From: a virus
Lineage: Duplodnaviria > Caudoviricetes
Reading direction: 5' to 3' (one strand)
Virus record (IMG/VR): IMGVR_UViG_3300016474_000578
Location: 1 to 33,688 of that record
DNA length: 33,688 nt
Shown here one piece after another: positions 19,014 to 32,169 of this stretch (positions are counted from its first letter, which is position 1; every line of letters starts with the position of its first letter). The translations under genes and the position numbers were made by a program. The notes beneath the pieces are model-generated. The model saw nothing but the letters and a program-made list of their open reading frames with translations, made no database searches and was not told the DNA's origin.

Positions 19014-19378
19014 TCACAATCCTCCACATAATCAGCGTGAACATACCCAGTAAATATTTCGTCACCAACCAACACGGTCACCGCCAGCCAATCACCAGAA
19101 CGACCGTTCATTTCCAGATTTTGCCCATCACGCAGAACAGCGACCACCGCATACGATGTACCAGCACCAGCCCGTAAATTGAGCATCCCGTCACCGCCAG
19201 GCAGGGCGTGAACAATCAGGCAGTTGCCCGCCTCAAGCGTTGGCACAGGTTTAGCAAGCGTTGGCAATCGGTCGGCAGATGTTTTTCCAGCTTCGCCGTC
19301 TGTTACGACTACAATTCTACATGCCAACGCCTGCAATACGAGAATAGATAGACATAACAATAATTTGGATTTTCTCAT
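19004..19378 (-). CDS. Lipoprotein with bacterial SH3 domain
   Basis: Signal peptide ending QALAC; LNLRAGAGTSY..GDWLAV..GYVHADYV. Confidence 0.8.
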   Translation of the reverse strand: MRKSKLLLCLSILVLQALACRIVVVTDGEAGKTSADRLPTLAKPVPTLEAGNCLIVHALPGGDGMLNLRAGAGTSYAVVAVLRDGQNLEMNGRSGDWLAVTVLVGDEIFTGYVHADYVEDCEWK

Positions 19379-19407
19379 ATTTTCCGTTTCCACGTGTTGC
19401 CAACACT

Positions 19408-19611
19408 TCACAGCGTTGGCACTTCTTCAGTGTCGATTAGGTCGTATATATCCGATCCGCTTTTATCCTTGCCAACGCACTTGACCTTAGCGTTGGCAAT
19501 CCCAAACCAGGCGCGACCCGTCGTTTTGTCATTGTAAATAATGAGTTGACGGCTCTTTGCCAACGCTTCGAGACCTGTCCAACTGACTGCCAACGCTTGC
19601 CGGCGTGTCAT
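19408..19611 (-). CDS. Hypothetical protein (start uncertain)
   Basis: 3' part of ORF 19408..19869; fills the gap before the SH3 lipoprotein gene. Confidence 0.4.
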   Translation of the reverse strand: MTRRQALAVSWTGLEALAKSRQLIIYNDKTTGRAWFGIANAKVKCVGKDKSGSDIYDLIDTEEVPTL

Positions 19612-19921
19612 TGCGTCCGAATTTTGGGCGGAGCCGCTCGAATTGTTCTTTTCTTGCACCTTTGCTTTTTGAACCGACATACCAAACCGTATTCCTTTCT
19701 GCGTTTCGCGTTCTCCAACAAATACCGCGCAGATCGCCTTTTTCGTTGTATCGCGGCTCCATACGACTGCCAACGCTTGCCGAAGCGTTGGCAATGACAA
19801 TTTCTTCGACGTCATGGCTTGCCAACGCTTCAGGCATGCTTGCCAACACTTGATTTTTAGCGTTGGCAAGTGTTGGCAATACTTCCTGGGCAGGGTGGTC
19901 TTTTACCTCTGCCCGTTGGTA
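19529..19921 (-). CDS. Predicted -1 frameshift extension of the membrane protein (basic, possibly DNA-binding)
   Basis: A AAC CCT at 19927-19921, 6-nt spacer, GGGCAG/CTGCCC hairpin; -1 frame open for 130 codons. Confidence 0.55.
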   Translation of the reverse strand, partial: YQRAEVKDHPAQEVLPTLANAKNQVLASMPEALASHDVEEIVIANASASVGSRMEPRYNEKGDLRGICWRTRNAERNTVWYVGSKSKGARKEQFERLRPKFGRNDTPASVGSQLDRSRSVGKEPSTHYLQ

Positions 19922-20772
19922 GGGTTTAGCGTCAGATCTTCGATATAGTTTGGAGTGTTGGCAGCAAAAGCGGTCACAGGCGCCGAAGCGTTGGCAATCG
20001 GTGTCGAAGCGTTGGCAGGCGTTGGCACATATTTATTGCGGTCTTTTTGCCACTGATTCTCGCCACGTGCCGCGCCAATGCCGGAAGACTCAGCTCGCGC
20101 CTTTTCTGCATACACCTGTGCGGCATGTACAGCGATGTCTTTTTGTGCTTCCATCTGCGCGAGACGCACCTCCATATCCGCATCAACCTGCGCCTCGCGG
20201 AGGCTCATCTCAGCCTGGCGGCGCAAAACCGCCTCCTGCGAAAATTGGCGGTACAGCTCGCCAGCCGCCACGTTGATCATCAGCATGGTCGGCAGGGCGT
20301 ACACGATCCAGCGTTGCACACTCGGCGGCACTTCCTGAAATGAGCTAAAGAACCCGAAAGCGGTGGCGATCACATCACTGGCGGCATATGCAGTAACACA
20401 CGTGCCCAAGAACGTAAAAATGACCATCACGGAAGATGTGATCAGTTGCGTGTTATTGTCCGGCTCTCGCATCATAAATTTTTTGAGCCAATTTGCAAGC
20501 CCATACTCAAAAAAGATGGGGAAGGACACGCCATACAGGAGAGCTGCAAAAATATTAGGTAGGTCACCTTTTGCGGTAACAATCCCACCGTCAACACGCA
20601 CGCCCAGCCCGATGGCAATGCCGGAGAACATCGAGAGCAGCGCACTCAGAAACAGCGCAATATACAAAAGCGGGTGATCGGTAAAATCTTTCGTCGCCAC
20701 CTTGAGGCTTTCGGCTCGCGCTTGTGCCTGCTTCCTCATTTCGGCTTTCACTTTTTCGACGTATGTGCTCAT
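19903..20772 (-). CDS. Multi-pass membrane protein with C-terminal coiled coil
   Basis: About 4 hydrophobic helices, then an Ala/Gln/Glu-rich coil. Confidence 0.85.
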   Translation of the reverse strand: MSTYVEKVKAEMRKQAQARAESLKVATKDFTDHPLLYIALFLSALLSMFSGIAIGLGVRVDGGIVTAKGDLPNIFAALLYGVSFPIFFEYGLANWLKKFMMREPDNNTQLITSSVMVIFTFLGTCVTAYAASDVIATAFGFFSSFQEVPPSVQRWIVYALPTMLMINVAAGELYRQFSQEAVLRRQAEMSLREAQVDADMEVRLAQMEAQKDIAVHAAQVYAEKARAESSGIGAARGENQWQKDRNKYVPTPANASTPIANASAPVTAFAANTPNYIEDLTLNPTNGQR

Positions 20773-23402: not shown

Positions 23403-24281
23403 ATGATTGCAATGATGCAGGAAGTGGAAAGATTTCTTAGAACATGCAAATCCCCCAATACCGCTGCCGGTTATCGCCTGGTGCTCACTCGACTCGTTGA
23501 GTGGCTATCGGTGCGTTCACTTGCGTTCACTGACATCACCCCAGTGCTATTCGATGAATTTCTCAACGATCAGCACCAGTGGAAGGCTGTTTCAAAACAC
23601 CTGGCATTTAATGTCACCCGATCATTTCTGCGCTGGCAGTATGGGGAGGAACACGCACTGTCAAAGGTTCGCCGTAAACGTCCAAAATCCAAACCGCAGC
23701 CGACAATCACCCAGGCTCAGTTCGAGCGGCTGCTCGAGTTTTTCAATACGATGACCCCCATCGGCGCGCGCGATCTGGCTCTTTTCTCGCTCGCCGCTGA
23801 AACGGGTCTCAGGGCAACCGCTCTATGCAACCTCAAGATGGCAGATCTGCATCTGGAGTCGTTGTCTCTTATTGCGCTGGATAAAGGGGCGGATGGTGGG
23901 GAGTGGCGCATCTGCAAATTTAGCGCGCCGGTCGCGTCGTACCTTGCCGCATGGCTGGCTCATCGTCAGACGATTGCCCTGCCTGATACTGATACCGTAT
24001 TCTGTTCCGTGTATGGAATCAAAAAAGGCAAGCCGAATCATCGTTTCGGCTTGCTGTCACGCTGCAGGGAAATCTCCGAGAAGGTCGGATTCAAATTCAC
24101 CCCTCACGTGTTCAGGCGCTTCATGGCAACGCGTATGTTGCAGCTCAAAGCCTCAACGATTGCAACCATGCGCCAGGGTGGGTGGAAAGATGAGAAAGAG
24201 TTCCGAAAGTACATCACAACCTACCAGTTGGACGACATGACGGACTATTCTGCGGTCGTGGACTATCTCAAAAAGAGATAA
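23403..24281 (+). CDS. int: Tyrosine integrase (probable tRNA-targeting phage integrase)
   Basis: TGLR, DKG, TPHVFRR, GGW, KY catalytic set; attP 57 bp downstream. Confidence 0.9.
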   Translation: MIAMMQEVERFLRTCKSPNTAAGYRLVLTRLVEWLSVRSLAFTDITPVLFDEFLNDQHQWKAVSKHLAFNVTRSFLRWQYGEEHALSKVRRKRPKSKPQPTITQAQFERLLEFFNTMTPIGARDLALFSLAAETGLRATALCNLKMADLHLESLSLIALDKGADGGEWRICKFSAPVASYLAAWLAHRQTIALPDTDTVFCSVYGIKKGKPNHRFGLLSRCREISEKVGFKFTPHVFRRFMATRMLQLKASTIATMRQGGWKDEKEFRKYITTYQLDDMTDYSAVVDYLKKR

Positions 24282-24338: not shown

Positions 24339-24383
24339 CTCATAAGCCCTTGGTCGGGAGTTCAAATCTCCCCCTCGGCACCA
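24339..24383 (+). other. attP core: 3' half of a tRNA with CAU anticodon (Met or Ile2)
   Basis: CTCATAA anticodon loop, GGGAG-TTCAAAT-CTCCC T-arm, CCTCGGC-A-CCA acceptor end; no 5' half upstream. Confidence 0.9.
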
Positions 24384-25041: not shown

Positions 25042-25070
25042 ATAATAAACCATCATATTAAATTTGTCAA
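25042..25070 (-). promoter_or_regulatory. Leftward promoter (repressor)
   Basis: TTGACA-17 bp-TATTAT. Confidence 0.75.
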
Positions 25071-25102
25071 TGTATTTATACAGAATTTTATACAATTTTT
25101 TC

Positions 25103-25131
25103 TTGACAAGCCCACGCCCATCGTTTATACT
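25103..25131 (+). promoter_or_regulatory. Rightward early promoter (may also drive the cassette array)
   Basis: TTGACA-17 bp-TATACT. Confidence 0.8.
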
Positions 25132-26043: not shown

Positions 26044-26835
26044 ATGAACGAATTAGCTCTTGTGAAAAACGAAATTAGCGCAGATCAAGTCGATCTTATC
26101 AAACGTACGATTGCCAAAGGTGCAACCAATGATGAGCTTGGATTGTTTCTGCAGCAATGCAAACGCACTGGTCTTGATCCGTTTGCCCGTCAGATCTACA
26201 TGCGCAAGCAATGGGATAGCAAAGAACAGCGCGAGGTTATGACTGTTGGTACGGCAATCGATGGGTTTCGGGTGGTTGCCGAGCGATCAGGCGAATACGA
26301 GGGACAGGTTGGCCCGTTATGGTGCGGTGAAGATGGAAACTGGATCGATGTGTGGATTTCCAATAATCCACCAGTCGCAGCAAAGGTTGGTGTTTGGCGT
26401 AAGGGATTTCGGGAGCCAATCTGGGGAGTTGCAAAATACAGCGAGTATGTGCAGCTCAAGAAGGACGGAAACCCCAATAGCATGTGGTCGAAAATGCCAG
26501 CCAACCAATTGGCAAAATGCGCCGAGTCTCTTGCTCTGCGTAAAGCGTTTCCGCAAGATTTGAGCGGACTTTACACAGCCGAGGAGATGGAACAAGCCAA
26601 TACCACAGAATACGCGGGAAATGATATTGATGTTATCGACGGAAACGCGACGCATGAACCGATGGATTATGACGAGGCTCGTCAAATGACCGTCAAGGTA
26701 AAAGGCAGAGATAGATTTGTAGGCGAGTTGACAAAAGAGCAGTTAGATTACATCCTGGAGAACGGGAAAGATAACCGTGTGATTGAAGCAGCAAAAGTTG
26801 TGCTAAAGAACGACTTTAATATGGTGCAACCATGA
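26044..26835 (+). CDS. bet: Phage recombination protein Bet (RecT/Red-beta family annealase)
   Basis: [54 protein letters not shown]. Confidence 0.93.
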
Positions 26836-27254: not shown

Positions 27255-27604
27255 AGGCACAGGATTATCTAGCCGGAATGACTCAATCCGAGGCGATACA
27301 CTACATCCAAACCCTGCCAGGACTCAGCCGCGAGGAGTTTGCCGAGCTTATGAGAGTGGCGCAAACGAAACCATCAAAACGCTATGGCCCAGAGACGGAT
27401 CTCGCGCAAATATCCAAACAGCGGGTTGAGGAGATTGTCAGATTTGTGCGCAAACGCAGAACAACGACTAGGCGCGAAATGATCAAGCACTTTCGCTGGA
27501 ACGGGACAACACTATATTTCACGATTCGACACGCCCAGGCACTCGGATTTATTGCGTCGGACATGAACGAGAGACGCGAGAAAGTTTATAGAGTGGCAAA
27601 ATAA
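27251..27604 (+). CDS. Possible winged-HTH protein
   Basis: GGAGG RBS; basic C-terminal IVRFVRKR..TRREMIKHF..LGFI..YRV. Confidence 0.6.
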   Translation: MKAQDYLAGMTQSEAIHYIQTLPGLSREEFAELMRVAQTKPSKRYGPETDLAQISKQRVEEIVRFVRKRRTTTRREMIKHFRWNGTTLYFTIRHAQALGFIASDMNERREKVYRVAK

Positions 27605-27614
27605 AAATCCGATC

Positions 27615-27845
27615 ATGCACACACCCAATCCCAACAATTACCGCATGTGGTTAGGCGAGGAAGTAAACAAGGCTTTATTTACTCTTGTTGCCAATAAGAA
27701 CTCCAACGCCCTAAAGGAGCTATCCGTCACAGAGTACGTCGAAAAGATGATCGCGCACTGGTGGAAGCAAGAATTTCCCGATGTTCCCGTGCCGTTTAAT
27801 GTCAAGCGGTACGATGCAGATTTAGATTTTGTACAATCTGGTTAA
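27615..27845 (+). CDS. Possible ribbon-helix-helix protein
   Basis: YRMWLGEEV..L..SVTEYVEKMI pattern. Confidence 0.45.
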   Translation: MHTPNPNNYRMWLGEEVNKALFTLVANKNSNALKELSVTEYVEKMIAHWWKQEFPDVPVPFNVKRYDADLDFVQSG

Positions 27846-27860
27846 ATCATAGTTAGTTGC
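27820..27860 (+). other. Candidate attI-like primary insertion site (crossover G27852|TT)
   Basis: GTTAGTTGC at 27852-27860 is the reverse complement of R'' of attC1; no attC hairpin upstream. Confidence 0.65.
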
Positions 27861-27871
27861 TTAGGAGAAAA

Positions 27872-28114
27872 ATGATAACTGTTCAAACTGAAATAGCCGA
27901 GAAGGTAGCATGTATTTGTTGCGGTGCTGAAAAGTATGCCACGCAATCACCGTATCTATGTCACAACTGCTGGAAAAATGGCGAAGCTGCCAAACTTATT
28001 CAGCAACTAACACAGCGTGCACTTGACGGGCTGTGGGCATGTGAAAATTGCGGAGACTGGCTTGAAAATGGAGAGTGTAAGAATTGCGAGTCTCCATTAG
28101 CCGCCCGCAAGTAA
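27872..28114 (+). CDS. Cassette 1 gene: Cys-rich zinc-finger protein
   Basis: AGGAG RBS; four CxxC motifs; stop codon in L' of attC1. Confidence 0.75.
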   Translation: MITVQTEIAEKVACICCGAEKYATQSPYLCHNCWKNGEAAKLIQQLTQRALDGLWACENCGDWLENGECKNCESPLAARK

Positions 28115-28129
28115 CGCAAACCGTTAGCC
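28005..28129 (+). repeat. attC1 (125 bp)
   Basis: aactaac-acagcgtgcacttgacgggc...gcccgcaagtaacgcaaacc-gttagcc. Confidence 0.9.
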
Positions 28130-28150
28130 CGCTCTGGGCAAAGGAGAATA

Positions 28151-28531
28151 ATGTCTAAAATATTACGATTACTTGATTTATCTTTTGAGGCTTGGGCAAC
28201 TCTCGACCACACATTTCACGAGAGGCTGGCAGGCGATTTGTACGAAGCCATCGAGGATGTTAGAAACGAAAATAACACATCTCAAATGGAGGCTTTCGAC
28301 GAGGCTCTTGAATGGGCAGCAAGTTGGATCACTGGGGCGCAGTTACTTGGTCGCAGTGAAGAAATCCAAGAATATGCCAGCAACATGGCAATGTCCATTC
28401 GGGCGGCTAAACGCGGGCTAACACAGCGTGCACCCGACGTTTGCCCCGCAGATGGTGGTAAGCATAGTTGGCATCCAAACAAAGATAATTATTTAATTTA
28501 CTCGTGTCGCAAATGCGGGGCACGCGGGTAA
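28151..28531 (+). CDS. Cassette 2 gene: hypothetical with C-terminal Cys/His motif
   Basis: AAGGAG RBS; stop codon in L' of attC2. Confidence 0.75.
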   Translation: MSKILRLLDLSFEAWATLDHTFHERLAGDLYEAIEDVRNENNTSQMEAFDEALEWAASWITGAQLLGRSEEIQEYASNMAMSIRAAKRGLTQRAPDVCPADGGKHSWHPNKDNYLIYSCRKCGARG

Positions 28532-28546
28532 CGCAAACCGTTAGCC
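28416..28546 (+). repeat. attC2 (131 bp)
   Basis: ggctaac-acagcgtgcacccgacgt...acgcgggtaacgcaaacc-gttagcc. Confidence 0.9.
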
Positions 28547-28567
28547 CGCTCTGGGCAAAGGAGTGTC

Positions 28568-28852
28568 ATGGTAGATATTACAAAAATTTCAGAAGAAGAA
28601 TTGAACAACGATTACAGAATCGCGCATAACGAAAGGCAGTTTTGCGAAATGGCTATGTTTGCAGGTCTTAAAGAATACAATGGTGTTGACCTTGCAGAGC
28701 AGATTATGAAAGCAAATACTATTATGGAAAAGATAATGTCTGAAATCAATCGGCGCGGGCTAACACAGCGTGTACCTGACACTTTGGACTCTGTCGCATC
28801 TAAAGCAGTTTTCAAAGCCTCAGCCAAATTCACTTTAGAAGATGAATCTTAA
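28568..28852 (+). CDS. Cassette 3 gene: hypothetical protein
   Basis: AAGGAG RBS; stops inside the attC3 loop. Confidence 0.75.
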   Translation: MVDITKISEEELNNDYRIAHNERQFCEMAMFAGLKEYNGVDLAEQIMKANTIMEKIMSEINRRGLTQRVPDTLDSVASKAVFKASAKFTLEDES

Positions 28853-28886
28853 CCTGCCAAAGTGCAGGTAACGCAATCCGTTAGGT
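28758..28886 (+). repeat. attC3 (129 bp)
   Basis: ggctaac-acagcgtgtacctgacactttgg...ccaaagtgcaggtaacgcaatcc-gttaggt. Confidence 0.9.
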
Positions 28887-28893
28887 GGCTGAA

Positions 28894-29214
28894 ATGCAAA
28901 ATTTGATAACTGATGAAGAATGGAAAATGTTGTCAGCGGAAAGCCGTCATCGGCTGAATCTCTTGCTTGCTTATCCGTGTGAATGGCAAATCCACGATGA
29001 AGAAGCAAACGCATGGGAATCTGCCTGCGGGCTTGTGTGGTGGTTTGAGGTCGGTTCGCCAGCAGAAAATGAAATGGCGTATTGTCCTAAATGTGGTCGC
29101 CACCTAACACAGCGTGCAGTGGATGAAGGGGATTCGTCCGCTCCCGAAGGTGATGCGTCACCCGAAGTTTTACCCGCTGGTGAGGCTGGTTCTACGCCCG
29201 CCCTTCACCACTAA
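28894..29214 (+). CDS. Cassette 4 gene: zinc-ribbon-like protein
   Basis: CEW..WESACG..YCPKCGR; stop codon in L' of attC4. Confidence 0.75.
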   Translation: MQNLITDEEWKMLSAESRHRLNLLLAYPCEWQIHDEEANAWESACGLVWWFEVGSPAENEMAYCPKCGRHLTQRAVDEGDSSAPEGDASPEVLPAGEAGSTPALHH

Positions 29215-29229
29215 CGCAAACCGTTCGGC
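29102..29229 (+). repeat. attC4 (128 bp)
   Basis: acctaac-acagcgtgcagtggatgaaggg...cccttcaccactaacgcaaacc-gttcggc. Confidence 0.9.
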
Positions 29230-29263
29230 GGACGCTCACTGAACATAACGAAAGGAAAATAAA

Positions 29264-29488
29264 ATGACAAAGGTAATGGTGTTCAATTTCAAAACTATGC
29301 AGTTTGAGCAAGCCAGCGAGGAAGAGGGCAATGATCTTCTTTCGCTAATCAGTGCTATGAATAGCGAATGCGCCGCCGAACAAAACATGCACGCGGACGG
29401 GGCTTGCCCCAAGTGCGGCGCAGAAGGTTACGTCATCTTAGGTGATGGGCGAAAATATTGTAATATCTGCAAAACGCCCCGCCGGTAA
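29264..29488 (+). CDS. Cassette 5 gene: small zinc-ribbon protein
   Basis: AAGGA RBS; CPKC..CNIC encoded within attC5. Confidence 0.75.
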   Translation: MTKVMVFNFKTMQFEQASEEEGNDLLSLISAMNSECAAEQNMHADGACPKCGAEGYVILGDGRKYCNICKTPRR

Positions 29489-29502
29489 TGCAGCCGTTAG
29501 CC
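29375..29502 (+). repeat. attC5 (128 bp)
   Basis: gccgaac-aaaacatgcacgcggacggggc...gccccgccggtaatgcagcc-gttagcc. Confidence 0.85.
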
Positions 29503-29538
29503 GCAAACTGGCTTGAAGTTGGAGAAAAGGAAATTATC

Positions 29539-29748
29539 ATGCCTCTAAAAGTTACTATCATCGTATCCGTACAAGACGCAGAACATGATCGCTATAGCGA
29601 CCCAAGCGGTCAAGAAAGTGTTGAGCTTTATTGCATTGAAACTTCCGAAATTGAACAGGCTTCAAACGCGGTAGCCTCGTCACTCGTGAAGGTTGCCAAT
29701 CTGAAATATAAGGCTGAAATCGCCGAGAAAGAATTAGAAGGCGGCTAA
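29539..29748 (+). CDS. Cassette 6 gene: hypothetical protein
   Basis: AAGGA RBS; stop TAA lies in R'' (canonical cassette layout). Confidence 0.75.
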   Translation: MPLKVTIIVSVQDAEHDRYSDPSGQESVELYCIETSEIEQASNAVASSLVKVANLKYKAEIAEKELEGG

Positions 29749-29831
29749 CAAAGCGTGCACCCGACGCCGCGCCACAGTCGCATTTTTTGGACAGGTTACG
29801 GGCGCGGCGCGGGTAACGCAAGCCGTTAGGT
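29743..29831 (+). repeat. attC6 (89 bp)
   Basis: ggctaac-aaagcgtgcacccgacgccgcgcc...ggcgcggcgcgggtaacgcaagcc-gttaggt. Confidence 0.9.
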
Positions 29832-29838
29832 GGCTTCC

Positions 29839-30234
29839 ATGCTATCCGTTTACGACAAAATACAAAACGCTTGTTTTCAACTCAATCACGACGCATATAT
29901 TTTGCAGTCGAAAACCAAGAAGCACATGCGCCAATTCTCGCCGTGTGAAAAATCGCTTGTCTTGCTAGAGTGCTTGCGTGAAGAAACTCACTTCGGTATG
30001 GCTATGGCTGTTGCTTCTAGAACTCACTGCAATTGTCACAACAATCTTTCCGAAGATGGCTTGTGGGCTATGTGTTTCGATGACACTGCCCGTCAAAATC
30101 ATTATGCTGGTGCGGCGCGCCACCTAACAAAGCGTGCAGGCGACGAAGGGGATTCTCCCGCTTCCAAGCCTTTGTCCACACTCGAAGTTAGTCCCGCTGA
30201 GCAGGCATTATCTACGCCCGCCCTTCGCGCCTAA
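29839..30234 (+). CDS. Cassette 7 gene: hypothetical Cys/His-rich protein
   Basis: Stop codon in L' of attC7. Confidence 0.7.
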   Translation: MLSVYDKIQNACFQLNHDAYILQSKTKKHMRQFSPCEKSLVLLECLREETHFGMAMAVASRTHCNCHNNLSEDGLWAMCFDDTARQNHYAGAARHLTKRAGDEGDSPASKPLSTLEVSPAEQALSTPALRA

Positions 30235-30249
30235 CGCAAACCGTTGGGC
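30122..30249 (+). repeat. attC7 (128 bp)
   Basis: acctaac-aaagcgtgcaggcgacgaaggg...cccttcgcgcctaacgcaaacc-gttgggc. Confidence 0.9.
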
Positions 30250-30265
30250 GCAGGAGCGAAGTAGC

Positions 30266-30979
30266 ATGAAAGCAAAGAAAGTTCTCAACCTTTACGCTGG
30301 GCTTGGCGGCAATCGTAAGTTATGGCAAGATGTCGAAGTTACTGCCGTTGAAATGGAACAAGATATAGCCGATGTTTACAAGGCACAATTTCCAAACGAC
30401 ACAGTTATTATCGGCGACGCTCACCAATATCTTTTAGATCACTCCGATGAGTTTGATTTTGTTTGGACTTCGCCACCTTGCCAGAGCCATAGTCGAATGA
30501 TGAAAGCCACTCGCCACAAGGTACGCAAATATCCTGACATGGCTTTATATCAGCAAGTGATTTTCTTGCAAAACTTTTTCAAAGGTCAATGGGTTGTCGA
30601 GAATGTGAAGCCTTATTATGAGCCTTTGATAAAGCCAGCGGCAATACTTGGCAGGCATTATTTCTGGTCAAACTTTGCCATCTCACAGTTTGAAGTACCA
30701 AGCCCGAAAGGTTTTATCACAGCAGGCACGGTTGCCGAAACTCAAAAATTGAAAGATTGGTTAGGTATCCAATACGAAGGAAATATTTATTACAAAGGCA
30801 ATCACTGTCCTGGTCAGGTGTTGCGTAATGCAGTTCATCCGCTTTTAGGCGAGCATGTTTTCCTTTGCGCCCAACAAACGGTTGCACCTGACCGCTTTCA
30901 GCGTGAGTCCGCCGCCGTCATTCCCCTGCAAAGTAATCTCTTTGCGGATGTACCGCCCGCTACAATCAGCGGCAGGTAA
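30266..30979 (+). CDS. Cassette 8 gene: C5-cytosine DNA methyltransferase
   Basis: LYAGLGG (I), SPPCQ (IV), VENV (VI), GRHYFW (VIII), RNAVHP (X); AGGAG RBS. Confidence 0.9.
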   Translation: MKAKKVLNLYAGLGGNRKLWQDVEVTAVEMEQDIADVYKAQFPNDTVIIGDAHQYLLDHSDEFDFVWTSPPCQSHSRMMKATRHKVRKYPDMALYQQVIFLQNFFKGQWVVENVKPYYEPLIKPAAILGRHYFWSNFAISQFEVPSPKGFITAGTVAETQKLKDWLGIQYEGNIYYKGNHCPGQVLRNAVHPLLGEHVFLCAQQTVAPDRFQRESAAVIPLQSNLFADVPPATISGR

Positions 30980-30994
30980 ACCGAGCCGTTAGCC
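30869..30994 (+). repeat. attC8 (126 bp)
   Basis: gcccaac-aaacggttgcacctgaccgct...agcggcaggtaaaccgagcc-gttagcc. Confidence 0.88.
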
Positions 30995-31086
30995 CGCTAT
31001 CCCGTGACCCGTCAAGCCGCCCGTGTGGCAAAAGTGCAAAAACGGTCTTTAAGTCACCGCGTAGGTGGTAAGCGCGCGGAAATAAT

Positions 31087-31118
31087 AAAAACCGACTCCC
31101 ACCACGAATGGGAGTCGG
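31087..31118 (-). terminator. Intrinsic terminator downstream of the second recombinase
   Basis: ccgactccca/tgggagtcgg stem; T-tract on the minus strand. Confidence 0.65.
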
Positions 31119-31180
31119 CAGCGCAGAAAGACGGAGCCGATCTGCATTCATATTCTACCAAATACCAAAGTCAAATAAAA

Positions 31181-31211
31181 GATTATGTGGTTAGGCTATA
31201 ACCACATAATC
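31181..31211. repeat. Perfect 13-5-13 inverted repeat (terminator or recombinase site)
   Basis: gattatgtggtta-ggcta-taaccacataatc. Confidence 0.7.
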
Positions 31212-32116
31212 TATTTTTTATTGAAAATCCTATCATACGCCTCATCCAGGGCGCCACCCAAATGAGCGTAACGGTTCGTCGTCTGAATGCTCTTATGACG
31301 CGCCAACTCCTGCGAGATCTTGAGGTCGCCAGACGCAAGATACGTGACGGTCACAAAATAATGACGAAAATCGTGAATTCTTATGGAGTTTCGATCAACA
31401 CCCGCTTCCGCAATTCGACCAACCACACCGCGCGCTGGATCTCCCTTTATCGCTTTCCACATCCCAGACGGCACAACCCGTTTTATTTTTTTTGATGCAG
31501 ACTTATCGTGTCTCGCAAAGACAGGCTGAGAGGCGAGGGGAGAGCGCGAATTTGTGTCGATGCTTGCCCGTGCCTGTAAATATTCCTTTAGCGCCGCAAT
31601 GGCACGATTCGAGAATCGCACCACCGCTTGTTTGTCGCCCTTGCCAACAATAACCGCCCACTGCTCCCTCCAGTCAATATCACCGCGTTTCAGGCTGCAA
31701 GCCTCGGAAATACGCAGTCCTGTATCAACAAGCGTCAACACAAATGCCCTGTCGCGTAGAGCGAGCAAGTCACCGCGCAGCTTTTCGCAATATTGAATAA
31801 CGCGCTCAATTCCCTCTCGGTCGAAGTTGACAACCCTATCCCCCTGTAAGCTGATATAGTGTCGATCTGCCGCGTCCATCCTGGCTGTGTCGCCAACGCC
31901 AATGAAATTATATAAACTGCGAACTGCTGTCCTGTATTGTTTTTGAGTGGTGGGGGAGTGGTCATGAAGCGCGTGCAAAAACCTGGTGTAATTCTCAACC
32001 GTCAACTCACCGCCTGTTATGATGACAAATTGATTGATCGCGTTCTTATACGACCGGATTGTTTTGGGAGAGCGATTCAAGGTTGTTAGAAAGTGGTTTA
32101 TTTGAGCCTGGGTCAT
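31211..32116 (-). CDS. Second tyrosine recombinase (XerC/D-like)
   Basis: SPKTIRSY, RDRA..TGLRISE, GKG, HDFRHY, LARH, RYAH; start MTQAQ with AGAGGA RBS. Confidence 0.92.
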   Translation of the reverse strand: MTQAQINHFLTTLNRSPKTIRSYKNAINQFVIITGGELTVENYTRFLHALHDHSPTTQKQYRTAVRSLYNFIGVGDTARMDAADRHYISLQGDRVVNFDREGIERVIQYCEKLRGDLLALRDRAFVLTLVDTGLRISEACSLKRGDIDWREQWAVIVGKGDKQAVVRFSNRAIAALKEYLQARASIDTNSRSPLASQPVFARHDKSASKKIKRVVPSGMWKAIKGDPARGVVGRIAEAGVDRNSIRIHDFRHYFVTVTYLASGDLKISQELARHKSIQTTNRYAHLGGALDEAYDRIFNKK

Positions 32117-32169
32117 TTTTCCTCTCTTTATTTTAGGTGAATGTTCCAATAATTATACTTACCTAAGAT

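What the first reader, a model, noticed from the sequence alone, without database searches (positions are those of the whole stretch)
28005..30979. attC sites are protein-coding and three encode zinc-ribbon motifs
Seen: 7 of 8 genes read into their attC, and six (1, 2, 4, 5, 7, 8) stop exactly at the TAA of the L' box. The arm gives a recurring LTQRAxD-type peptide. attC5 and attC8 enter in another frame, but a one-base length difference restores the in-frame GAC (AEQNMHAD, AQQTVAPD). The loops of attC1 (CENC..CKNC), attC5 (CPKC..CNIC) and attC2 (C..H..CRKC) encode metal-binding motifs. Even attC6, where the gene stops in R'', keeps an open LTKRAPD...RG* frame. Established: cassette ORFs typically end before or within R''. 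Inference: dual-coded recombination sites, perhaps selected for genome compaction, with attC acting as a portable C-terminal tag or domain.
Basis: partly seen in the sequence, partly recalled or inferred. Interest (0 to 1): 0.85.

Follow-up and report, generated by a model that had tools for sequence, protein, structure and literature searches.

The report
Phage recombination hairpins encode swappable tails
In this bacterial virus and many relatives, small mobile genes read straight through the DNA hairpins that bound integron gene cassettes and stop at a fixed point inside them, so each hairpin likely doubles as a protein tail (often a predicted zinc finger), and related sequences show the same tails joined to many different protein bodies.

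Summary
Observation confirmed and general. The window is a temperate phage with eight integron-type cassettes, an attI-like site and no integron integrase. Six genes stop at the L' TAA, one in the loop, one in R''. Among genes of 100 aa or more, 72 of 94 read past R'' in related viral contigs, against 2 of 116 in bacterial (mostly Chloroflexota) records with the same attC arms. Entry frame matches the L' frame in 175 of 245 read-through sites. Cys-rich loops are under protein-level selection (pN/pS 0.27, 7 pairs) while keeping attC stems. Tails are shuffled: the gene-2 body carries 39 distinct tails, and the attC2 tail sits on 16 other bodies, joined in the left arm. The methyltransferase gets a clamp-motif-like QSNLF from attC8. 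Twelve of 50 related viral records encode IntI just upstream of their arrays. Translation, zinc binding, host and swapping enzyme are inferred. The attC6 open frame is chance-level; compaction is untested. Nine literature searches showed phage CALINs and engineered coding attC, no natural case. This scan noted the phenomenon before on other DNA (e1-5345148, of which part later fell; e1-6067167).

The parts
25103..25131 (+). sigma-70-type promoter-like site, likely driving the rightward early operon (RecT, small genes, cassette array); partner of a divergent site at 25042-25070
   Evidence: 11 of 12 consensus matches each; function inferred
26044..26835 (+). RecT-family single-strand annealing protein, one candidate for left-arm tail swapping
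   Evidence: PF03837 E 6e-33; phrog_2780; role inferred
27615..27845 (+). 76-aa ORF ending just before the attI crossover, at the place where related phages carry intI
27834..27858 (+). attI-like site; crossover G|TT between 27852 and 27853; left boundary approximate
   Evidence: GTTAGTT at 27852-27858 is the exact complement of R'' of attC1; resembles the sequence behind intI in related phages; contigs from two other runs match 27600-27856 and stop, and one loose end continues into another GTT core
27872..28114 (+). cassette gene 1 (80 aa); last 35 codons inside attC1; Cys4 tail CENC..CKNC
   Evidence: DZR E 0.002, under cut-off; 6 of 6 listed loop variants synonymous
28005..28129 (+). attC1 (125 nt)
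28151..28531 (+). cassette gene 2 (126 aa); body found with 39 distinct tails; tail C-x5-H..CxxC found on 16 other bodies
28416..28546 (+). attC2 (131 nt)
28568..28852 (+). cassette gene 3 (94 aa); stops inside the loop, 17 nt before the L' TAA
28758..28886 (+). attC3 (129 nt); loop partly like a loop from the bacterial set (83% over 41 nt)
28894..29214 (+). cassette gene 4 (106 aa); CPKC motif in the body, Ser/Pro/Ala-rich tail from attC4
   Evidence: phrog_10312 E 1.5e-12
29102..29229 (+). attC4 (128 nt), related to attC7
29264..29488 (+). cassette gene 5 (74 aa); Cys4 tail CPKC..CNIC found on 5 other bodies; body found with two other Cys4 tails
   Evidence: Zn_ribbon_RRN7 E 7.5e-5, under cut-off; model with separate body and tail joined by a low-confidence linker
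29375..29502 (+). attC5 (128 nt); R'' reads GAA instead of TAA
29539..29748 (+). cassette gene 6 (69 aa); canonical stop in R''
29743..29831 (+). attC6 (89 nt), not covered by its gene
29839..30234 (+). cassette gene 7 (131 aa); Ser/Pro/Ala-rich tail, apparently weakly constrained
   Evidence: 2 of 3 listed loop variants change the residue
30122..30249 (+). attC7 (128 nt); loop weakly like bacterial loops (71% over 77 nt)
30266..30979 (+). cassette gene 8, C5 cytosine methyltransferase (237 aa); tail from attC8 carries QSNLF
   Evidence: PF00145 E 1.5e-8; 37 of 120 homologues end in Q-x-x-[LM]-F
30869..30994 (+). attC8 (126 nt), 6-nt spacer in the left arm
31180..31212 (.). bidirectional terminator-like hairpin closing the operon
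31211..32149 (-). Xer-like tyrosine recombinase, not an IntI and probably not part of the system
   Evidence: 49.8 bits against the 265 cut-off of TIGR02249; lacks the IntI insertion; homologues in 3 of 50 attC-bearing records

Best explanation
The array is a set of integron-type cassettes in the predicted early operon of a temperate phage that likely infects Anaerolineae; its genes read through the attC hairpins to the L' stop codon, so each loop likely supplies a translated C-terminal tail, and tails occur joined to different bodies at the left arm, likely by recombination there. How it works, step by step. (1) Shown: each cassette's R'' complements its own 5' core site, and the L box, inner stem and extrahelical positions are kept. 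Inferred: normal G|TT shuffling by an IntI in trans (host, or a co-infecting phage that has one). (2) Shown: genes run through the site and prefer the L' TAA. Inferred reason: it is the last stop that travels with the cassette, since the TAG of GTTAG lies past the crossover and is absent from about half of the cores. (3) Shown by sequence: Cys-rich loops are under purifying selection as protein, loops of the Ser/Pro/Ala type much less. Inferred history: read-through of host-type attC came first, probably favoured because ribosomes on the hairpin relieve polarity in a dense operon, and loops were then recruited as zinc-ribbon or clamp-motif modules. (4) Shown: bodies and tails reassort with the junction between the R'' AAC and L''. 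Inferred: one crossover between two left arms would pop out a circle of tail n plus body n+1 that is still a valid cassette. The enzyme is undecided: top-strand IntI cleavage at R'' or RecT-type annealing in the roughly 20-nt arm, about even odds.
For: Window: R'' complements the cassette's own core in 8 of 8; 195 of 253 in viral neighbours against a shuffled mean of 29. Stops: viral L' 144, loop 79, R'' 49, upstream 37, R' 12, through 10 of 331; bacterial L' 9, loop 5, R'' 31, upstream 129, R' 1, through 4 of 179. Genes of 100 aa or more: 72 of 94 vs 2 of 116 past R''. After removing related loops and genes, about 77 of 165 stop at L'. RBS-based gene calls: 67 of 132 vs 1 of 31. Non-gene frames reach the L' stop in 45 of 588. 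Inner stem 83-99% paired over nine positions in 95 loop families; cross-paired control 33-53% at the seven variable positions. Two CxxC motifs in 14 of 144 loops in frame, 0 and 1 in the other frames. pN/pS 0.27 (0.15-0.38, 7 pairs) in frame vs about 1.3 in other frames. Gene-2 body with 39 tails, 23 of the 28 long ones with 3 or more Cys, against 40 of 103 in the small-gene pool (p 8e-5) and 1 of 17 for long genes. attC2 tail on 16 other bodies, attC5 tail on 5. 31 of 34 multi-site loop clusters follow two or more gene clusters. IntI over cut-off in 12 of 50 viral records, all co-oriented upstream of attC sites. GTTAG in 180 of 372 viral cores.
Against: No ribosome or peptide data; RNA-run contigs cannot show transcription. 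No recombination assay. The window has no intI, and 38 of 50 relatives have none over the cut-off; read-through is as common without it. Many tails look like low-information linkers: pN/pS 0.72 (0.51-1.03, 15 pairs) for loops with fewer than 2 Cys; a looser pairing gave 0.71-0.74 for all and for Cys loops. 79 of 331 genes stop inside the loop. Only 1 of 46 tails reached a Pfam cut-off. Indels between loop pairs were not mostly multiples of three (26 of 57). The junction profile fits neither route cleanly. Neither strand folds better. Host is inferred from the attC family only. Sites were collected with exact arm patterns from this window, so the sample is biased to this arm type.
Confidence: 0.72

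Rival explanations
1. Read-through is selected only to keep ribosomes on the mRNA across the hairpin (anti-polarity); the tail residues are tolerated filler and tail swapping is a by-product of repeated arms.
For: Untranslated stretches lower downstream cassette expression, and extending a frame up to the attC gave a 2-fold rise (PMC11511950, passages). Short ORFs in attC relieve the stem-loop barrier (PMC8876359, passages citing Jacquier 2009). Non-Cys loops are near neutral. Tails are replaceable on the same body.
Against: Cys loops show pN/pS 0.27. Gene-2 and gene-5 bodies keep Cys-type tails when the tail changes, while long genes, mostly methyltransferases, avoid them. attC deletion had little effect on most cassettes in PMC11511950.
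Confidence: 0.2
2. The sites are dead integron relics that have been absorbed into phage genes and now act only as homology spots for phage mosaicism; IntI no longer uses them.
For: No intI in the window. RecT lies upstream. Viral loops are far more diverse than host loops (191 clusters of 331 vs one cluster holding 213 of 255).
Against: Covarying stems in 95 loop families, R''/core complementarity 195 of 253, modelled probability of the recombinogenic fold above 0.1 in 88 of 95, intact intI at the head of relatives' arrays, and other contigs leaving the window's sequence at the attI core.
Confidence: 0.05
3. Artefact: open frames arise from the stop-poor attC sequence and longest-ORF gene calling, and chimeras from mis-assembly at repeated arms.
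For: Bacterial loops are mostly open in all frames (185-206 of 255). The source run's contigs break at the duplicated arms.
Against: The same pipeline gives 2 of 116 in bacterial records. Gene frames were chosen from upstream length only, and an RBS-based call agrees. Mis-assembly would not keep frame or give synonymous bias.
Confidence: 0.03

Closest known systems
CALINs and integrons in phage genomes (Qi et al. 2023, PMC9892861; main text read, parts 1-4 of 7, supplements not seen)
   Same: attC clusters without integrase in phages, cassettes with DNA methyltransferases; five of six tested phage attC recombined with IntI1
   Different: That paper reports no translation through attC (no passage on it) and its complete integrons are Vibrio, Shewanella and class 1 cases. 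Here genes read to the L' stop, loops are coding modules, and relatives carry their own co-oriented intI.
Chromosomal integrons of Anaerolineales / Chloroflexota
   Same: Same arm sequences, L' TAA, extrahelical positions; 129-130-nt sites; IntI directly linked in 3 of 3 arrays fetched with their intI region
   Different: Host genes stop upstream or in R''; loops are uniform; intI is divergent. Phage genes read through, loops are diverse, intI is co-oriented and ends at attI.
Synthetic attC sites embedded in coding sequence (Nivina et al. 2020, PMC7439510; passages)
   Same: One sequence serves as recombination hairpin and protein code; domain shuffling proposed as an application
   Different: Engineered, with short loops and shuffling at the normal crossover. 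Here natural, with 30-37-codon tails and exchange in the left arm, upstream of the loop.
ORF-11 in attI1 and short ORFs in attC (review PMC8876359 and PMC11511950; passages; Jacquier 2009 seen only as cited there)
   Same: Translation over a recombination site that helps the next cassette
   Different: Those are short separate ORFs whose sequence matters little; here the cassette's main gene covers the site and Cys loops are selected as protein.

Membership tests
integron attC site | R'' (RYYYAAC) and R' (GTTRRRY), with R'' complementary to the cassette's own core | tested here: met
   AAC/GTT in 8 of 8 and exact complementarity in 8 of 8; several deviate from the strict RYYY consensus (e.g. 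GCCGAAC)
integron attC site | paired L''/L' box and stem with extrahelical bases | tested here: met
   7 of 8 window sites pair 7 or more consecutive positions once the extra base is skipped; attC5 has a shifted register. Extra base A on the top strand (T on the bottom) in 86 of 95 viral families. Features as in PMC5027507 (passages)
integron attC site | length 57-141 nt and a foldable recombinogenic form | tested here: met
   89-131 nt; range from PMC5371416; modelled fold probability 0.29-0.95 for bottom strands in cassette form
integron attC site | bottom strand favoured over top strand in folding | tested here: inconclusive
   no bias in phage (32 of 95) or in host sites (20 of 90) with this model, so the test does not discriminate
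integron attC site | recombined by IntI | not testable with these tools
   needs an attC x attI assay
CALIN in a phage | two or more attC within 3 kb and no intI nearby | tested here: met
   8 sites; TIGR02249 not reached in G000; record is 92% complete, but the place of intI in relatives is covered and holds another ORF
complete integron | intI with the IntI-specific insertion | tested here: not met
   both window recombinases lack it; met in relatives, 12 of 50
complete integron | attI at the head of the array | tested here: met
   sequence likeness, core complementarity and divergence of other contigs at that point; activity inferred
zinc ribbon | two metal-ligand pairs 10-20 residues apart | tested here: met
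   attC1 and attC5 Cys4; attC2 Cys3His; Cys kept across homologues
zinc ribbon | assignment to a curated Pfam family | tested here: inconclusive
   attC1 and attC5 tails hit DZR and Zn_ribbon_RRN7 below cut-off, attC2 no hit; 1 of 46 tails over a cut-off
zinc ribbon | binds zinc | not testable with these tools
   needs metal analysis
beta-clamp binding motif | Q-L-x-L-F near the C-terminus (PMC4549789, passages) | tested here: inconclusive
   QSNLF has Q1, L4, F5 but not L2; the looser Q-x-x-[LM]-F ends 37 of 120 homologues and lies in 10 of 223 viral tails in frame vs 1 and 0 in the other frames

The most novel reading that the evidence does not exclude
These phages run a natural two-level gene assembly system: whole cassettes are shuffled at R' as in any integron, while a second exchange in the attC left arm, catalysed by IntI on the top strand, pairs protein bodies with a library of loop-encoded C-terminal domains. 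That would make them factories of new cassettes and new chimeric proteins, with their own phage IntI lineage, and give a testable route for how new gene-attC combinations arise.
Probability: 0.3. Interest if true: 0.92.

Novelty: new variant of a known kind. Interest (0 to 1): 0.78.

Why it matters
attC sites are treated as non-coding punctuation that at most overlaps a stop codon; coding attC sites were found in my searches only as engineered constructs. Here hundreds of natural sites keep hairpin geometry while their loops are read as protein, and bodies and tails reassort. This shows integron parts used for protein domain shuffling, shows complete co-oriented integrons in phage genomes, and offers an assay for the open question of how genes get paired with new attC sites. 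It also means that attC-derived peptide ends in such phage proteins are not simply annotation errors.

Tried and rejected
Rfam found nothing in the window; ARAGORN found no whole tRNA. Recombinase 31211-32149 as a dedicated array enzyme: no relatives by pattern scan, homologues in 3 of 50 records; rejected. Strand bias in folding: none by MFE (46 of 95) or by constrained ensemble, in phage or host. First pN/pS pass included badly matched pairs and was redone with ungapped close pairs; both are reported. Deciding between top-strand IntI and homologous exchange from the junction profile: mixed result. Fold search of the gene-5 model: best Z 2.4, nothing clear; the tail aligned over 30 residues at 1.3 A to a chain of 6cnb at Z 2.1, too weak to use. 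Complex prediction of the attC8 tail with an Anaerolineales clamp: no answer, score 0.02. RNA runs held only 6-15% of the words and as contigs, so they do not show expression. Loop variants of attC2 in further runs were not obtained. IntI tree: bootstrap not settled, two long outgroups; used only as a hint.
Full report
Setting. The window is a whole virus record, linear, 92% complete. It encodes terminase, portal, capsid, a replication initiator, RecT and two tyrosine recombinases. A tRNA-like 3' half follows recombinase 23403-24281 (my reading), which suggests a temperate phage. Divergent promoter-like sites at 25042-25131 and a bidirectional terminator-like hairpin at 31180-31212 bracket a rightward operon that ends in the array. 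Neither recombinase is an IntI: 49.8 bits at best against a cut-off of 265, and both lack the IntI insertion.

The observation. Six genes end at the L' TAA, gene 3 in the loop, gene 6 in R''. In all eight, R'' is the exact complement of the cassette's own 5' core (seven shown; the first core is GTTAGTT at 27852-27858, as the script was one base off there). This is what a cassette that has passed through a circle looks like. The first core sits in an attI-like stretch: it resembles what follows intI in related phages, contigs from two other runs match 27600-27856 and end there, and a loose end in a third continues into a different GTT core.

Is it chance? The gene frame was chosen from upstream length alone. 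Of 372 viral sites, 331 had a gene of 40 aa or more: L' 144, loop 79, R'' 49, upstream 37, R' 12, through 10. Of 255 bacterial sites, 179 had one: L' 9, loop 5, R'' 31, upstream 129, R' 1, through 4. Phage-like loci in the bacterial set (L343, L344, L352) were left in. For genes of 100 aa or more, 72 of 94 against 2 of 116 read past R''. Keeping one site per loop and gene cluster leaves about 77 of 165 at L'. A call based on an ATG with a ribosome-binding site gives 67 of 132 against 1 of 31. The entry frame matches the L' frame in 175 of 245 read-through sites, while the phase is 29/29/28 where the gene stops earlier.

Origin of the sites. Every locus with three or more sites in the listing has a Chloroflexota title, mostly Anaerolineales. 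Twelve of 17 such genomes hold an IntI over the cut-off, and in the three arrays fetched with their intI region the gene lies next to the array, divergent. Host loops are uniform (213 of 255 in one cluster); viral loops fall into 191 clusters of 331, and 55 of 331 still resemble loops of the bacterial set. The host is therefore inferred, not shown. Twelve of 50 attC-bearing viral records encode an IntI over the cut-off (50 of 72 chosen loci were searched). All 12 lie on the array's strand upstream of attC sites, one across the record's ends, and the intI stop abuts the attI core in 5 of 11 examined. Seven of the 12 also hit Terminase_6N at E 0.001 or better. A rough tree puts 8 of 14 phage IntI-like proteins in one branch with one genome copy (99/98; bootstrap unsettled).

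Both codes are maintained. In 95 distinct loop families the L box and inner stem pair at 83-99% over nine positions, against 33-53% at the seven variable ones when arms are cross-paired. The modelled chance of the recombinogenic fold exceeds 0.1 in 88 of 95 and in all eight window sites. On the protein side, two CxxC motifs occur in 14 of 144 loops in the gene's frame and in 0 and 1 in the others; overall Cys frequency is not higher than in one of the other frames. Close loop pairs give pN/pS 0.53 (22 pairs), 0.27 for loops with two or more Cys (7 pairs, 0.15-0.38) and 0.72 for the rest (15 pairs, 0.51-1.03); other frames give 1.1-1.3. A looser first pass gave 0.71-0.74, and 0.82-0.90 for host loops. 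Of the variants listed (40 of 80 rows shown), 6 of 6 in the attC1 loop and 3 of 3 in attC5 are synonymous, three of the attC1 ones in Cys codons, whereas 2 of 3 in attC7 are not. The attC1 variant rests on one contig of depth 4, and homologous proteins show one Ile/Val change in the attC5 tail. Pfam hits are to zinc ribbons but weak: 1 of 46 tails passes a cut-off (39 were the most Cys-rich of 111 viral tails). A single-sequence model of gene 5 has body and tail as separate units with a low-confidence linker at the arm (mean pLDDT 75).

Tails are exchanged. Of 100 homologues of gene 2, 81 share only the body, 16 only the tail, 3 both. The 76 with the same body end carry 39 distinct tails; 23 of the 28 long ones have three or more Cys, against 40 of 103 for small genes in the pool and 1 of 17 for long genes, which are mostly DNA methyltransferases. 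Of 8 hits for gene 5, five share only the tail and two have the body with other Cys4 tails. Across the viral set, 31 of 34 multi-site loop clusters follow two or more gene clusters, and 29 of 33 gene clusters have two or more loops. At DNA level R'' follows the body and the stem from the end of L'' follows the loop, so the junction lies in the 15 or so bases between. For gene 8, 37 of 120 homologues end in Q-x-x-[LM]-F; the window's copy gets QSNLF from the attC8 loop. This resembles the clamp-binding consensus Q-L-x-L-F (PMC4549789, passages); binding is a prediction.

Mechanism. Shown: cassette anatomy, read-through, preference for L', selection on Cys loops, reassortment at the left arm. 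Inferred: translation; IntI acting in trans; the L' TAA is favoured because it is the last stop that stays with the cassette (only 180 of 372 viral cores read GTTAG) and because a tail's frame is fixed; anti-polarity as the first benefit (PMC11511950 and PMC8876359, passages). A crossover between two left arms would release a circle of tail n and body n+1 whose R'' still matches its core, and leave body n with tail n+1. Top-strand recombination at R'' is known but disfavoured (PMC5027507, passages); RecT is encoded upstream. My data do not separate the two. Confidence in the whole account is 0.72; in dual coding and reassortment alone about 0.85-0.9.

What is known. Qi et al. 2023 (main text read) report phage CALINs, some with methyltransferases, and show IntI1 activity on them; they do not describe read-through. 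Nivina et al. 2020 (passages) built coding attC sites. Nine searches showed no natural case, but the library lacks most subscription papers, and I did not open any supplement; the annotation file of Qi et al. could show such overlaps. This scan has noted the same thing on other DNA: e1-5345148 in Anaerolineae phages, marked as partly fallen on a later check (which part is not shown), and e1-6067167, e1-5917174, e1-5917195. I saw these after the tests above; they are unchecked notes and not support.

Verdict. A real, family-wide feature: a new variant of the integron in which attC loops are coding modules that reassort with gene bodies. Interest 0.78.

Noticed in passing
L447:7869-8816 and G023, G025, G029, G044, G045, G050, G053, G056, G061, G065, G067: Related phages carry a full IntI co-oriented with the array, its C-terminus running into attI; most fall in one phage-rich branch. 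The G056 copy has one internal TAG.
   Followed up: partly
window 24340-24383: 3' half of a tRNA-like sequence with a CAT anticodon and CCA end directly behind recombinase 23403-24281: probable attP of the prophage.
   Followed up: no
window 31211-32149 and L469:4905-5825: A second Xer-like recombinase sits at the end of the array here and in G058, but homologues occur in only 3 of 50 records.
   Followed up: partly
L469:934-1878 (G058) and G049:13305-14261: Divergent IntI-like proteins under the TIGR02249 cut-off (257 and 204 bits), on long branches; the G058 one lies in the middle of an array.
   Followed up: no
window 30988-31120: After attC8 a ninth core site starts a short stretch with a weak 65-codon ORF (31004-31201) and a hairpin; other runs have deep contigs over it.
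   Followed up: no
L344, L343, L352: Loci in Chloroflexota genome bins that show phage-type read-through cassettes; probably prophages and a way to pin the host.
   Followed up: no
one search hits P0070-P0095 (96-aa group), P0003: Gene 2 also seems mosaic inside its body: several proteins share only residues 1-41 at 90-98%, and P0003 shares 1-69 plus the tail.
   Followed up: no
viral loci: Long cassette genes in these arrays are mostly DNA modification enzymes (C5, N6/N4, Dam, MT-A70, one Mom-family).
   Followed up: partly
window 19235-20027: Short repeats of AGCGTTGGCA in both orientations within two ORFs.
   Followed up: no
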